Shown piece by piece: positions 58,532 through 59,643 of a DNA stretch of 64,000 bases; the first letter of the stretch is position 1, and the number at the start of each line of letters is the position of its first letter. The stretch is from contig JAFUOX010000051.1 in NCBI GenBank assembly GCA_017481725.1, forward strand, positions 7,638 to 71,637. Direction: 5' to 3'. Source of the DNA: Kiritimatiellia bacterium (GTDB lineage: Bacteria; Verrucomicrobiota; Kiritimatiellia; RFP12; UBA3636). The position numbers and the translations under genes were made by a program. The notes beneath the pieces were generated by a model. That model was not told the origin of the DNA. It did not search any database and saw only the letters and a program-made list of their open reading frames with translations.

Positions 58532-58771
58532 CTACTTTTTCGCCTTTTTTCTTGTAAGCCATATAATATTATAAACTAGAGTAAAACAAATAATAATTAG
58601 AGCAACCCAATCTAATATTTTTACCCTCAGAGTTTCTCCTTCAGTAACATATATTGCATGAGAGATTGATAAAATATGTGCTCCAATTAACAACAAAATA
58701 AATGTACATAAAAAACTGAATATTTTGTTGTCGGAATTAAAAATCTTCTTTCTATTCTTATTCCATCCCAT
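58532..58771 (-). CDS. Small 2-TM membrane protein; candidate cognate immunity protein of the decayed toxin
   Basis: The track ORF starts at 58819, but that stretch overlaps the toxin-relic frame. The Met at 58771 (MGWNKNRKKIF...) overlaps the relic's stop (TATGGGATGGAATAA), a typical toxin-immunity coupling. Confidence 0.5.
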   Translation of the reverse strand: MGWNKNRKKIFNSDNKIFSFLCTFILLLIGAHILSISHAIYVTEGETLRVKILDWVALIIICFTLVYNIIWLTRKKAKK

Positions 58772-59424
58772 AATTAATTGCTCCAATCGCCCAGAAAATA
58801 CAATTGTGAAACACTCCATGATAAAATGGTGACTTTTTTATTTCTTCTCGTATCATTTTCAACATTTTTATATCCTGTTCAGGTGTTGAATGGAATGAAA
58901 TTGGTGACTTCAAATGCATCCCATAAGATTCATTAATCGTGCCTTTATCGATAATATTAACTTTAAGATATTCATAAAACTTTGATTAGGACCAAAATCA
59001 AGTGTTATTTCACCTACTTTATACAATTTACCATCATGACATATCCAATCATCTACAGCAACACCAACATGTATTTGTTTTCCTCCTGAACCTCAATAAT
59101 TTAATATGTCAAATTGAGTTATATATCTATTCTTGCCTAATATATCAAAAAACTTATTCCATCATTCTCACAGAACGCATATAGATTGATGCCACCATCT
59201 TCTTCGATTGGGTCGCGGTTAAGCCAACGCATCAGAGTAGGATGATAGAAACGGTAACCATAATAATATAGGCATGTATCTGTGTCAAGATATTTGGTTG
59301 AATAACGATGGCGGAATGTGTTAGCTAGTAAGCCACTTTGTGCGATTGTGTTACCGAATGCATCGTAAGTGTATTGTGCGACCACATTACCATTTGAGTC
59401 TAGGTAATGAGTGCTAATAGACAA
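58758..59424 (-). pseudogene. Orphan, 5'-truncated Rhs/YD-repeat core end fused to a papain-like (His...Cys) C-terminal toxin domain; disrupted by 2 frameshifts and 1 stop
   Basis: Track ORF 59137-59424 reads YTYDAFGN...[47 protein letters not shown]. After a shift in the A6 run (59147-59152) it continues FDILGKNRYITQFDILNY. After TGA (59093-59095) it reads GSGGKQIHVGVAVDDWICHDGKLYKVGEITLDFGPNQ. After a further shift near 58990 it reads SKFYEYLKVNIIDKGTINESYGMHLKSPISFHSTPEQDIKMLKMIREEIKKSPFYHGVFHNCIFWAIGAINYGME. Confidence 0.65.
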
Positions 59425-59643
59425 ACATCGTTTGAATATGATTTTACTATACTGAAGATAATCCTTTCTTCCTTGCTTGTAGAAAATTGTGATGATTCTA
59501 ATTGACCTACAGAAACAACCCCTTGTGACTCAGCAAAACAACTAACAACAGATTGTCCATAGATTTTTTACCTGAAGATCATCCATGACACACCAATTTC
59601 CTTTTTTGCTCTTGACCTGTCTTAGAAAATCTTTGAAAACTCT

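What the first reader, a model, noticed from the sequence alone, without database searches (positions are those of the whole stretch)
58758..59500. Reconstructable Rhs C-terminal toxin: a His...Cys papain-like domain hidden under two frameshifts and a TGA stop
The 95-aa track ORF is the last YD repeats plus the conserved core end ([27 protein letters not shown]). The expected D.LG boundary motif appears only after shifting frame in an A6 run at 59147-59152 (GISF-FDILGK). Reading on through one TGA and one more shift gives a domain of about 115 aa: GGKQIHVGVAV...GKLYKVGEITLDFGP...INESYG...SFHSTPEQDIKMLKMIREEIKKSPFYHGVFHNCIFWA. A His in an H-x-G-V strand comes first, and an NC-x-x-F(W) Cys helix comes last. 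This order and spacing match PPPDE/DeSI-type and related NlpC/P60-like thiol peptidases, which are known toxin domains of polymorphic toxin systems. The relic's stop overlaps the ATG of a 2-TM ORF, a putative immunity gene. Upstream of about 59424 the frame is closed, so the module lacks an N-terminus and is an orphan.
Basis: partly seen in the sequence, partly recalled or inferred. Interest (0 to 1): 0.65.

Follow-up and report, generated by a model that had tools for sequence, protein, structure and literature searches.

The report
Decayed orphan Rhs toxin with immunity gene
This is the broken, headless tail of a bacterial Rhs contact toxin, whose killing domain belongs to an unnamed family that looks like a lipid-cutting His-Cys enzyme, sitting next to its still-intact small membrane immunity gene; it is an ordinary kind of relic, but the toxin family itself is not yet catalogued.

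Summary
On the minus strand, 59412-59154 encodes the end of an Rhs core (TIGR03696, E 1e-22). It runs into a ~125-aa C-terminal domain broken by three lesions: a T7-to-T6 frameshift (59147-59152), a GGA-to-TGA stop (59093-59095) and a 1-bp deletion (58946/58947). Independent metagenome assemblies reproduce all three, so they are not assembly errors. A 97%-identical relative shares only the first.

The repaired domain has intact homologs (126 cluster representatives), including one ending an Rhs protein of at least 2129 aa. The family matches no Pfam or NCBIfam model. It has an invariant His, a near-invariant Asn-Cys, and a confident AlphaFold model with the Cys at a helix start.

Evidence for a permuted papain-like (LRAT/PLAAT, PPPDE) fold is weak but convergent: recurrent sub-threshold Pfam hits, hhalign scores above all 200 shuffles, and a picornavirus polyprotein structural match. 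Foldseek against the PDB found nothing.

A small gene with two hydrophobic segments overlaps the toxin stop and recurs after homologs, as with the phospholipase toxin Tox-Act1 and its immunity protein. I read this as a dead orphan toxin cassette with a retained immunity gene. The toxin is more likely a membrane-lipid hydrolase than a peptidase.

The parts
59154..59412 (-). Remnant of the 3' end of an Rhs core (last YD repeats, the [27 protein letters not shown] motif, and the start of the D-x-LG boundary). It lies inside the mechanical ORF 59424..59137.
   Evidence: TIGR03696 E 9.9e-23. 73% identical to the core end of P0012 from 59412 to 59155. Depth is 3-8 times higher here and contigs branch at both edges.
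59147..59152 (-). Lesion 1: a T6 run (A6 on the plus strand) where T7 is needed, giving a -1 frameshift at the core/toxin junction. Present in every lineage sampled.
58758..59146 (-). Relic of the C-terminal toxin domain (FDILGK-NRYITQFDILNY*GSGGKQIHVGVAV ... FHNCIFWAIGAINYGME, with the stop TAA at 58760-58758), read through lesions 2 and 3.
   Evidence: 15 homologs at E 1e-60 to 3e-20. Alignments A1/A2. 126 cluster representatives.
59093..59095 (-). Lesion 2: an in-frame TGA replacing the conserved Gly (GGA) of the GGSGG motif.
   Evidence: L001 has GGA. X1, X2, X4, X5 and L014-L016 have TGA.
59069..59071 (-). Codon of the family-invariant His (in HVGVAV), the proposed catalytic base.
   Evidence: Invariant in 74 of 74 sequences. 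It lies just before strand 24-33 in the model. It aligns with His23 of PLAAT3 in the global hhalign, a low-confidence alignment.
58946..58947 (-). Lesion 3: a 1-bp deletion (the G of an ATG/Met codon) between these two positions, giving a second frameshift.
   Evidence: L001 has the base. (X5 in part of the population and X23 have it).
58800..58802 (-). Codon of the near-invariant Cys (in FHNCIFW), the proposed nucleophile.
   Evidence: At least 90% conserved. It is the first residue of the last helix in the pLDDT-94.5 model. It aligns with the NCEHF Cys of PLAAT and the NCNHF Cys of PPPDE.
58532..58771 (-). Probable cognate immunity gene: 79 aa with two hydrophobic, TM-like segments. Its ATG overlaps the toxin's last codons by 14 nt. 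The gene is intact.
   Evidence: Hydropathy. Called as 79 aa on L014/L015. BLASTP E 1e-4 to the ORF following P0003. The SH(A/V)IY motif is shared with the ORFs following L005/L006/L007/L013. Only 0.83 differences per 100 nt against L001, compared with 4.1 in the toxin.
58128..58496 (-). 122-aa small membrane ORF. A further probable orphan immunity gene, and a paralog of the next ORF.
   Evidence: Syntenic in L001 with 4 differences, all synonymous (my own reading of the alignment and the positions). BLASTP E 6e-9 to the 110-aa ORF.
57692..58024 (-). 110-aa small membrane ORF, paralog of the 122-aa ORF (shared C-terminal Y-[ED]-V-W-x-x-R-G-M-P motif).

Best explanation
This is a dead orphan Rhs toxin cassette with a living immunity gene.

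How it arose (inferred from established knowledge of Rhs orphan modules). A C-terminal piece of an Rhs gene was displaced or acquired without the N-terminal shell and without a start codon. The piece comprised about 260 nt of conserved core end, the variable toxin domain and the immunity gene. It then decayed stepwise. A T7-to-T6 frameshift at the core/toxin junction came first and is shared by all lineages seen. In the window's lineage a GGA-to-TGA stop and a 1-bp deletion followed. Because the first lesion lies downstream of the only stretch homologous to other Rhs genes, recombination within the core cannot rescue the toxin.

What is retained. The 79-aa membrane protein downstream remains intact and conserved. 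I infer that it still protects the cell against neighbours that fire the intact toxin.

What the toxin is. The intact toxin, seen in metagenomic homologs at the end of Rhs/YD proteins of at least 2129 aa, is a compact ~125-aa domain. A His sits on the second beta strand and a Cys sits at the start of the last helix. The most likely reading is that it is a distant member of the permuted papain-like (NlpC/P60) group that includes LRAT/PLAAT acyltransferases, PPPDE and the T6SS phospholipase Tox-Act1. On that reading it uses the Cys-His pair to cleave acyl ester bonds of membrane phospholipids in the target cell, and the small membrane immunity protein blocks it at the membrane.

Shown: the Rhs core end, the three lesions and their reality, the conserved family with invariant His and Cys, fusion to long Rhs proteins, the conserved downstream small hydrophobic ORF, and faster divergence of the toxin than of the immunity gene.

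Inferred: the superfamily assignment (weak but convergent evidence), the lipid substrate, the protective role of the retained immunity gene, and the order of events.
For: Rhs core end: TIGR03696 at E 9.9e-23, extending through the repaired junction.

Lesions and lineage pattern. Three samples plus three independent assemblies carry all three lesions. L001 carries only lesion 1. X5 and X23 lack lesion 3. X24 has a different 50-bp deletion.

Orphan status: homology to intact cores starts at 59412. Contigs branch at 59409 into YD-repeat sequence and at 59154-59164 into other C-terminal sequences, and depth is 3-8 times higher over the core end.

Family: 15 close homologs and 126 representatives. 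16 of 78 full-length members carry RHS repeats. L006 has an open frame of at least 2129 aa ending in the intact domain.

Conserved residues: His invariant; Arg, Asp, Trp, Gly, Asp and Cys at 90% or more.

Structure: pLDDT 94.5, with Cys112 opening helix 112-120.

Superfamily:
- LRAT and Peptidase_C97 are the only Pfam families hit by more than 2 of 74 members.
- One full-length member hits C97 at E 0.0028.
- 9 of 12 PDB sequence hits are PLAAT/LRAT enzymes aligned at NCEHF.
- hhalign against the PLAAT3 profile gives P 0.0011 and score 26.4, against a shuffle maximum of 24.5 (0 of 200 reach it).
- hhalign against PPPDE gives P 0.00066, with 0 of 200 shuffles reaching it. PLAAT against PPPDE themselves give only P 0.00039 with the same thin profiles.
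- Foldseek BFVD top hit is a picornavirus polyprotein: prob 1.00, TM 0.56, 121 of 124 residues. Picornavirus 2A H-box/NC proteins are PLAAT3 homologs (bioRxiv 10.1101/2024.04.06.588386; PMC3931614).

Immunity: small ORFs with hydrophobic stretches follow the toxin in the window and in L002, L003/L004, L005-L009 and L011. L010, L012 and L013 show only open frames without a defined start. Pairwise E is 1e-4. Tox-Act1 is a permuted NlpC/P60 phospholipase whose immunity protein has two transmembrane helices (PMC12994826).

Relaxed constraint: differences per 100 nt are 4.1 in the toxin against 0.83 and 1.08 in the two downstream ORFs. About 12 amino-acid changes against 1 synonymous change separate the window toxin from P0007 (my own count).
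Against: No curated model reaches its threshold.

The family profile finds nothing better than E about 0.5 among PDB sequences.

Foldseek with a high-confidence model finds no PLAAT, DeSI, TseH or any papain-like structure among the top 50 PDB hits.

hhalign probabilities are only 15-27% and cover only the C-terminal 44-45 columns. The N-terminal His strand aligns only in a low-confidence global alignment.

I could not see which part of the picornavirus polyprotein was aligned, nor measure the His-Cys distance in the model.

Rhs toxins are usually thought to act in the cytoplasm (stated in PMC12994826), whereas Tox-Act1 is toxic only from the periplasm.

The lipid target is inferred by analogy only.

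No main rhs gene or secretion system is visible in the window. Expression of the immunity gene rests on a few metatranscriptome contigs that could be DNA carry-over.

The two differences in the immunity ORF between the window and L001 are both non-synonymous, though the number is too small to interpret.
Confidence: 0.6

Rival explanations
1. The domain is a PPPDE/DeSI-type thiol (iso)peptidase that cleaves a protein or peptide-linked target in the recipient cell.
For: The H-x-G-V-x-V and Y-x5-N-C-x-x-[FW]-S motifs resemble PPPDE. 4 of 74 members give weak Peptidase_C97 hits and one full-length member hits at E 0.0028. hhalign P is 0.00066, above all 200 shuffles. Rhs toxins generally act in the cytoplasm (PMC12994826).
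Against: The signal is no stronger than for LRAT/PLAAT. No DeSI structure appears among the Foldseek PDB hits. A tiny membrane-embedded protein with two hydrophobic segments is an odd inhibitor for a soluble cytoplasmic peptidase, whereas it matches the lipid-targeting Tox-Act1/Imm-Act1 pair.
Confidence: 0.17
2. The domain has a fold of its own and is not homologous to papain-like enzymes. The His...Asn-Cys pattern would be convergent, or not catalytic at all, and the toxin would act in another way, for example by inserting into or perturbing the membrane.
For: A pLDDT-94.5 model has no PDB neighbour with E below 0.1 or TM above 0.3. All sequence-profile links are sub-threshold and limited to about 45 columns. 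The family also has other strongly conserved positions (DRY, AVD-W, S-x-P-x-x-D) that are not part of the LRAT or PPPDE signatures.
Against: Several separate kinds of weak evidence converge on the same small group of families and on the same Cys. The Cys sits at a helix N-terminus and the His on a strand, as in papain-like enzymes. The scores equal those between two accepted members of the group.
Confidence: 0.15
3. The domain is a cell-wall (peptidoglycan) amidase or endopeptidase like the canonical NlpC/P60 effectors, acting in the periplasm.
For: NlpC/P60-fold amidases are common interbacterial toxins (named in PMC12994826: Tae2, Tae4).
Against: The catalytic order is His then Cys, which is the permuted order rather than the canonical Cys then His. 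No member hit an NLPC_P60 model. Permuted members are described as lipid-directed (PMC12994826). Immunity proteins of amidase effectors are generally soluble periplasmic proteins (my own knowledge), not small integral membrane proteins.
Confidence: 0.05
4. The gene is not dead. The frameshifts and stop are assembly or sequencing errors, or the T6 run is a programmed -1 slippery site (T_TTT_TTG in the upstream frame) that lets ribosomes read into the toxin frame.
For: Lesion 1 lies in a homopolymer and is a canonical X_XXY_YYZ heptamer in frame (my own reading). It is conserved in all lineages. L001 has no other lesion.
Against: All three lesions recur with 0 gaps in at least six independent assemblies. 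The window also has a TGA and a non-homopolymer 1-bp deletion downstream, so slippage could not yield a full domain here. The module has no Rhs shell or start codon, so even a read-through product could not be delivered. Substitutions in the toxin are almost all non-synonymous.
Confidence: 0.03

Closest known systems
Orphan Rhs C-terminal toxin/immunity modules (as described for Salmonella and E. coli rhs loci; Koskiniemi et al. 2014 and Poole et al. 2011, cited in PMC12994826)
   Same: A fragment of the conserved core 3' end, a variable toxin domain starting at the D-x-x-G-L-type boundary, and an overlapping immunity gene. There is no start codon and no N-terminal shell. The core fragment is shared with other Rhs genes in the same samples.
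   Different: Here the toxin is inactivated by three lesions. The first lies just beyond the homologous stretch, so core recombination cannot reactivate it. The main rhs gene is not visible. The module sits in a long low-GC array of small unannotated ORFs.
Tox-Act1 / Imm-Act1 (Salmonella T6SS phospholipase effector with a permuted NlpC/P60 core; PMC12994826)
   Same: An antibacterial toxin with an essential His-then-Cys pair of the permuted type (H43/C151 there; H22/C112 in domain numbering here). The immunity protein there has two transmembrane helices, matching the two hydrophobic segments here. Both are gut competition settings.
   Different: Tox-Act1 is a stand-alone T6SS cargo effector that is toxic from the periplasm. 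This domain is fused to Rhs/YD proteins. The fold assignment here is weak, and no activity has been measured.
LRAT / PLAAT (H-RAS-like suppressor) acyltransferase-phospholipases, Pfam PF04970, and the picornavirus 2A H-box/NC proteins
   Same: The order His (strand) ... Asn-Cys (helix start). The motif S-P helix cap ... Y-x5-N-C-x-x-[FW]-x5-6-Y-G. A similar succession of strands and helices (my own comparison, from memory of the PLAAT topology). The best sub-threshold PDB sequence hits and the best structural hit (a picornavirus polyprotein) fall here.
   Different: No hit reaches the Pfam cut-off. The beta hairpin after the His is about 11 residues longer. The second His of the PLAAT triad has no clear counterpart (possibly Asp46). 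There is no C-terminal membrane anchor. Foldseek does not retrieve PLAAT structures.
PPPDE / DeSI peptidases, Pfam PF05903 (Peptidase_C97)
   Same: H-x-G-[IV]-x-V near the N-terminus, then S-T-x-x-x-[ED] helix ... Y-x5-N-C-x-x-F-S. hhalign P is 0.00066.
   Different: All hits are sub-threshold. There is no structural match to 2WP7 or 3EBQ. PPPDE proteins are eukaryotic and viral (iso)peptidases with no known role as Rhs toxins or pairing with membrane immunity proteins.

Membership tests
Rhs C-terminal module (RHS repeat-associated core, TIGR03696) | Significant match to the core-end profile, including the terminal D-x-x-G-L-type boundary | tested here: met
   E 9.9e-23, 80.4 bits against a 32.5 cut-off, profile positions 1-75 of 76, on the read-through.
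Rhs C-terminal module (RHS repeat-associated core, TIGR03696) | YD/RHS-repeat shell upstream of the core end in the same gene | tested here: not met
   Homology stops at about 59412 and no other Rhs fragment is in the window. Pfam RHS_repeat gives no hit. Intact homologs do have the shell. This is why the module is called an orphan.
Orphan Rhs toxin/immunity cassette | Core-end fragment, toxin and immunity gene, without a start codon; the core fragment is shared with other Rhs genes | tested here: met
   (depth spike and contig branches at 59409 and 59154-59164).
Orphan Rhs toxin/immunity cassette | Location downstream of a full-length rhs gene | not testable with these tools
   The window ends at 64000, and all public contigs carrying the array break about 900 bp further on.
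Permuted papain-like NlpC/P60 group (LRAT/PLAAT, PF04970) | Catalytic His precedes catalytic Cys (circular permutation), with the Cys in an N-C motif at a helix N-terminus | tested here: met
   His is invariant and Asn-Cys is at least 90% conserved. Cys112 is the first residue of helix 112-120 in the pLDDT-94.5 model.
Permuted papain-like NlpC/P60 group (LRAT/PLAAT, PF04970) | Significant sequence-profile match to the family | tested here: not met
   Best Pfam LRAT E is 0.024 among 74 members, and none reaches the cut-off. PDB PLAAT sequences score E about 1.
Permuted papain-like NlpC/P60 group (LRAT/PLAAT, PF04970) | Profile-profile similarity above chance | tested here: inconclusive
   hhalign probability 20.6%, P 0.0011, score 26.4, above 200 of 200 column shuffles (maximum 24.5) and above the reversed controls. 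This is comparable to PLAAT against PPPDE at P 0.00039. Only 44 columns are aligned.
Permuted papain-like NlpC/P60 group (LRAT/PLAAT, PF04970) | Structural similarity to solved members | tested here: not met
   No PLAAT, LRAT, TseH or DeSI chain is in the Foldseek PDB top 50; the best E is 0.16 at TM about 0.2. The BFVD top hit is a picornavirus polyprotein (TM 0.56, prob 1.00), but the aligned region could not be inspected.
PPPDE / Peptidase_C97 (PF05903) | Significant match to the family profile | tested here: not met
   Best E is 0.0028 for one full-length member and 0.079 for domain-only members. The window read-through gives no hit.
PPPDE / Peptidase_C97 (PF05903) | Profile-profile similarity above chance | tested here: inconclusive
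   Probability 15-27%, P 0.0019 to 0.00066, with 0 of 200 shuffles reaching the score.
Canonical NlpC/P60 cell-wall hydrolases (PF00877) | Cys precedes His; match to the NLPC_P60 profile | tested here: not met
   The order is His then Cys. NLPC_P60 is not among the families hit.
Tox-Act1 / Imm-Act1 (STox_15) | Immunity protein with two transmembrane helices encoded directly downstream | tested here: met
   The 79-aa ORF has two hydrophobic segments. The same layout is seen after homologs. The feature of Imm-Act1 is taken from PMC12994826. The segments here come from a simple hydropathy scan, not a dedicated TM predictor.
Tox-Act1 / Imm-Act1 (STox_15) | Sequence membership in the Tox-Act1 clade | not testable with these tools
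Tox-Act1 / Imm-Act1 (STox_15) | Phospholipase activity with toxicity dependent on His and Cys | not testable with these tools
   This requires an experiment.

The most novel reading that the evidence does not exclude
The relic is the first pointer to an uncatalogued family of Rhs-delivered toxins. The close members whose source is shown come only from metagenomes. Overall there are 126 cluster representatives, with no Pfam or NCBIfam model and no NCBI or UniRef member among the hits that carry a source. On this reading the family forms a new clade of permuted NlpC/P60 lipid-acyl hydrolases with its own signature (DRY...H-x-G-x-A-V-D-x-W...S-x-P-x-x-D...N-C-x-x-W). It is paired with its own family of small membrane immunity proteins carrying an S-H-x-I-Y motif. 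If so, the lipid-targeting Tox-Act1-type mechanism extends from stand-alone T6SS cargo to Rhs-encapsulated toxins in gut bacteria.
Probability: 0.45. Interest if true: 0.5.

Novelty: new member of a known kind. Interest (0 to 1): 0.36.

Why it matters
For this genome the feature is a pseudogene, so its direct importance is small. It does show that the cell has kept an immunity gene while letting the matching weapon decay, which is the expected signature of living among neighbours that still carry the weapon.

The wider value is at the level of the family. The read-through sequence recovers a conserved, structurally well-predicted toxin domain that no curated library names and that sits on giant Rhs proteins in gut and other metagenomes. 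If it is a lipid-cutting enzyme of the permuted papain-like type, it adds a second, independently delivered branch to the recently described Tox-Act1 class. It would also offer a compact (~125 aa) enzyme and immunity pair that is easy to test.

Tried and rejected
- Pfam and NCBIfam on the read-through toxin and on the immunity ORFs gave nothing significant.
- The family profile A2 against PDB sequences gave 0 hits. The broader A5 gave only hits at E about 1.
- The first AlphaFold run, with 11 sequences, was poor (pLDDT 67) and its Foldseek hits were meaningless. I replaced it with the 74-sequence run.
- The genome-contig scan with the toxin alignment matched 16 patterns but found no relatives. 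An exact 24-mer of the immunity ORF gave 0 matches. The source species therefore remains unidentified. A5 was too diverse for pattern design.
- Plasmid searches by DNA and by protein gave no match.
- The last protein-database search with A5 found no bridging members and no named proteins.
- I considered an ADP-ribosyltransferase reading (R...S-T-x...Q/E-x-D) and rejected it, because the S-T-P and Q-x-D motifs are adjacent rather than on separate strands.
- I considered a programmed frameshift at T_TTT_TTG. I reject it for this window because two further lesions lie downstream.
- I could not confirm in the literature that Pfam PF13387 (Lnb_N, 2 weak hits) is the former DUF4105, so I do not use it as evidence.
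Full report
WHAT IS IN THE SEQUENCE

The feature lies on the minus strand.

- Frame A, 59424 to 59137, reads [95 protein letters not shown].
- A second frame continues FFDILGKNRYITQFDILNY*GSGGKQIHVGVAVDDWICHDGKLYKVGEITLDFGPNQSFMNILKLILSIK...
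- A third frame continues ...KGTINESYGMHLKSPISFHSTPEQDIKMLKMIREEIKKSPFYHGVFHNCIFWAIGAINYGME*, with the stop TAA at 58760-58758.

RHS CORE END

With the first shift read through, the N-terminal part matches the NCBIfam model TIGR03696 (RHS repeat-associated core domain) at E 9.9e-23. The score is 80.4 bits against a cut-off of 32.5. The match covers profile positions 1-75 of 76, so it extends through the repaired FFDILG boundary. The Pfam RHS_repeat model did not hit this short piece. An intact homolog core (P0012) aligns at 73% identity from 59412 to 59155, and nothing else in the 64-kb window resembles an Rhs core or this toxin.

THE THREE LESIONS

- Lesion 1 is a T6 run (A6 on the plus strand, 59147-59152). 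T7 would give S-F-F-D-I-L-G-K, the same length as in all homologs.
- Lesion 2 is TGA at 59095-59093, where every homolog has the first Gly of GGSGG.
- Lesion 3 is a single missing base between 58947 and 58946.

A 1247-bp contig from another sample (L001, found through the 89-aa protein P0007) is 97.2% identical to window 59284-58039 and has the same gene order. It shares the T6 run, but it has GGA instead of TGA and CCGATGAAAGGC where the window has TCGAT-AAAGGC. Otherwise the reconstruction is right.

ARE THE LESIONS REAL?

The stretch occurs in at least 20 gut, faecal and sheep-gut metagenome runs. Contigs of three samples from two studies (X1, X2, X4) are identical to the window across the lesions, with 0 differences and 0 gaps. 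Three further assemblies match over 4.7-10.7 kb without gaps: L014 and L016 at 100%, and L015 with 6 mismatches.

Other lineages carry other states:
- X5 has the undeleted base at 58946 in part of its population, but still has the TGA.
- X23 has the undeleted base.
- X24 has a 50-bp deletion, 59055-59104.

The T6 run is present wherever that position is covered. The lesions are therefore genuine and were acquired stepwise, with lesion 1 first.

ORPHAN STATUS

Depth over 59163-59400 is 3-8 times that of the flanks. Contigs branch at 59154-59164 on the downstream side, into at least three unrelated continuations. They also branch at 59409 on the upstream side. The loose end there, reverse-complemented, reads YDNNGNIT, which is a YD repeat as in P0012. 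So the core end is a multi-copy repeat shared with other Rhs genes in the same samples, and the window copy loses homology at about 59410.

The reading frame itself stays open up to the stop at 59532-59530, so 'closed at 59424' is inaccurate. There is, however, no start codon before the TTG at 59424 and no Rhs sequence upstream. The unrelated 210-aa ORF ends at 59644.

THE TOXIN FAMILY

The read-through domain finds 15 proteins at E 1.5e-60 to 3e-20, most covering 99-100% of it. Several are preceded by an Rhs core end (alignment A1). An exhaustive profile search finds 126 cluster representatives at E below 1e-3. Of 78 full-length ones, 16 carry RHS repeats.

Metagenome locus L006 has an open frame of at least 2129 aa, cut by the contig end, that ends in an intact copy. 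Other carriers combine RHS repeats with TPR plus a C39 peptidase, or with dockerin plus a beta-propeller. No PAAR, VgrG or LXG domain was seen, so the delivery route is unknown.

In a 74-sequence domain alignment (A5) the His of HVGVAV is invariant. Arg3, Asp28, Trp30, Gly41, Gly65, Asp88 and Cys112 are at least 90% conserved. The signature is DRY...H-x-G-x-A-V-D-x-W...G-x-W-x-K-x-G...T-x-D-F...S-x-P-x-x-D...P-P-x-Y...N-C-x-x-W.

The family matches no Pfam or NCBIfam model at significance. All 16 hits of the last database search come from metagenome sources, none from NCBI or UniRef.

FOLD

A first model from 11 sequences was poor (pLDDT 67). With A5 the model reached pLDDT 94.5 and pTM 0.86. 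Its elements are strands 2-5, 24-33 and 36-49, helix 53-58, strands 65-71 and 79-82, helix 85-100, and helix 112-120. His22 sits just before the second strand, and Cys112 is the first residue of the last helix.

Foldseek against the PDB gave nothing. The best E was 0.16 at TM about 0.2, from proteasome and HslV chains, and no papain-like chain was in the top 50.

Foldseek against predicted viral structures gave a picornavirus polyprotein as the top hit: E 6e-3, probability 1.00, query TM 0.56, rmsd 4.8 A over 121 of 124 residues. A second fish picornavirus polyprotein and two other RNA-virus polyproteins followed at TM 0.39-0.48. Picornavirus 2A proteins with an H-box and NC motif are homologs of the lipid-modifying enzyme PLAAT3 (bioRxiv 10.1101/2024.04.06.588386), and fish picornaviruses carry them (PMC3931614; bioRxiv 10.1101/463083). 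I could not see which polyprotein segment was aligned, so this link is an inference.

SEQUENCE-PROFILE TESTS OF THE PAPAIN-LIKE IDEA

- Scanning the 74 domain sequences against Pfam at E up to 10, the only families hit by more than two members are LRAT (4 members, best E 0.024) and Peptidase_C97/PPPDE (4 members, best E 0.079). One full-length member hits C97 at E 0.0028.
- The A5 profile against PDB sequences gives 12 hits at E 0.5-1.7. Nine are PLAAT/HRASLS/LRAT enzymes, all aligning the family's Y...N-C...W to the catalytic NCEHF.
- hhalign of A5 against a verified PPPDE seed gives P 0.0019 (the seed was verified against 2WP7 and 3EBQ). Against a three-sequence PPPDE alignment it gives P 0.00066, score 25.6, with 0 of 200 column shuffles reaching that score.
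- hhalign against a 120-sequence PLAAT3 profile (seed 100% identical to primate PLAAT3, all hits PF04970) gives P 0.0011 and score 26.4. Shuffles give mean 12.2, sd 2.3 and maximum 24.5. Reversed controls give 17-18.
- As a yardstick, PLAAT against PPPDE, two accepted members of the permuted group, reach only P 0.00039 and score 31 with these thin profiles.
- All local alignments cover the same 44-45 columns: the S-x-P helix cap, the helix, Y-x5-N-C, the aromatic residue and Y-G. In a low-confidence global alignment the invariant His falls on His23 of PLAAT3, with an 11-residue longer hairpin in the toxin.

My reading is that superfamily membership is likely (about two in three) but not proven. 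The data cannot choose between the LRAT and PPPDE branches.

IMMUNITY GENE

The ATG at 58771 overlaps the last toxin codons (ATGGGATGGAATAA) and opens a 79-aa ORF with two hydrophobic segments by a simple hydropathy scan. Gene callers on L014 and L015 also aa.

Small ORFs with hydrophobic stretches follow the toxin domain in L002, in L003/L004, and in L005-L009 and L011, usually with overlapping starts. L010, L012 and L013 show only open frames without a defined start.

The window protein and the one after P0003 align at E 1e-4. Four share an S-H-[AV]-I-Y or S-Q-A-L-Y motif after the first hydrophobic segment.

Between the window and L001, differences per 100 nt are 9.2 in the core end (mostly synonymous, probably from exchange with paralogs) and 4.1 in the toxin. 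They are 0.83 in the 79-aa ORF and 1.08 in the next ORF, where all four differences are synonymous by my reading. Between the window toxin and P0007 I count about 12 amino-acid changes against one synonymous change. The toxin is drifting while the downstream genes are conserved.

COMPARISON WITH WHAT IS KNOWN

A 2026 study of Salmonella T6SS effectors (PMC12994826) describes Tox-Act1, an antibacterial effector with a permuted NlpC/P60 core related to LRAT, YiiX, TseH and DUF4105. Its His43 and Cys151 are essential. It cleaves phosphatidylglycerol and phosphatidylethanolamine. [quoted passage not shown] The paper states that permuted members of the superfamily are lipid-directed, whereas canonical members are peptidoglycan peptidases.

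The family found here has the same catalytic order and the same kind of immunity protein, but it is fused to Rhs proteins. The same paper notes that Rhs-fused toxins usually act in the cytoplasm. That is a point against a simple transfer of the Tox-Act1 mechanism.

MECHANISM PROPOSED

In intact relatives, by analogy with other Rhs proteins, the Rhs shell would encapsulate the domain, autoproteolysis at the D-x-x-G-L boundary would release it, and it would be delivered to a neighbouring cell. There the Cys-His pair would attack an acyl ester of membrane phospholipid. The producer's small membrane protein would block this at the membrane.

In the window the cassette has no head and three lesions, so no toxin can be made. 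Only the immunity function can remain.

Confidence by step:
- Relic and orphan status: about 0.9.
- Toxin/immunity pairing: about 0.75.
- Permuted papain-like superfamily: about 0.65.
- Lipid substrate: about 0.4.

VERDICT

The feature is an ordinary kind of object, a decayed orphan Rhs cassette. It carries a toxin domain family that is not yet catalogued and that deserves a direct test.

Noticed in passing
window 59644-63937 (minus strand), continuing beyond 64000 in L014 1-863: A low-GC stretch (0.26-0.33, against about 0.40 elsewhere) holds six consecutive ORFs of 210, 232, 392, 140, 150 and 202 aa, and a 187-aa ORF beyond the window end. None of the five scanned has a significant Pfam hit, and most have an N-terminal hydrophobic segment. 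It looks like an array of orphan immunity genes. Every public contig carrying it breaks about 900 bp past position 64000.
   Followed up: partly
window 60313-60425, and L014 742-855 (just beyond window position 64000): A 114-bp intergenic stretch is repeated at 90% identity in direct orientation, bracketing a block of five ORFs (202, 150, 140, 392 and 232 aa). It could be a cassette boundary or recombination site.
   Followed up: no
window 58128-58496 and 57692-58024 (minus strand): Two small membrane ORFs (122 and 110 aa) downstream of the immunity gene are paralogs (28% identity, E 6e-9). They share a C-terminal motif Y-[ED]-V-W-x-x-R-G-M-P-x-[WF]-G-x-Y and have no database family.
   Followed up: partly
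window 56008-57368 (minus strand): An AbiEi antitoxin / AbiEii nucleotidyltransferase toxin pair (type IV toxin-antitoxin, abortive infection) sits at GC 0.50. It is clearly distinct from both the low-GC array on one side and the housekeeping genes (pyruvate formate-lyase and its activase) on the other.
   Followed up: partly
P0014 (251 aa; alignment columns 150-300): One homolog is a chimera. After the Rhs boundary it has an unrelated N-terminal half (VSLSDLKNIMSRLANIRKHL...CVASCEIANACGDK), joined to the C-terminal half of this toxin domain (from WKADGEIEERAGL to the end, including the N-C motif but lacking the His strand).
   Followed up: no
Family members P0008, P0009, P0010, P0015, P0019 and loci L009, L010, L011: Many members extend past the ...YGM end with a short Cys-rich tail (for example SEKCNDCCKE, GKCCNPDKTTWKR, VGCCCDGK, KHCCPSAGN). 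The window relic and its closest relatives lack this tail. Its role is unknown.
   Followed up: no
window 59147-59153 (minus strand): In the upstream reading frame the T6 lesion forms the heptamer T_TTT_TTG, the canonical X_XXY_YYZ pattern for -1 ribosomal slippage into exactly the toxin frame. The run is conserved in all lineages sampled.
   Followed up: partly
whole window: 45 of 49 ORFs of at least 150 aa lie on the minus strand, and GC skew is negative almost throughout. This indicates strong co-orientation with one replication arm. Gene content includes GH42, GH38 and two GH10 glycosidases, a Ser/Thr kinase with a double zinc ribbon, and DUF4340. None of the large ORFs I scanned matched a known secretion-system family. 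The species is not among the GTDB representatives by an exact 24-mer.
   Followed up: partly
window 57360-59531, runs X21 and X22: Short contigs from a metatranscriptomic library cover parts of the 110-aa ORF, the 79-aa immunity ORF (58650-58744), the toxin relic (58961-59118) and the core end (59255-59531). This hints at transcription across the cassette, but DNA carry-over cannot be excluded.
   Followed up: partly
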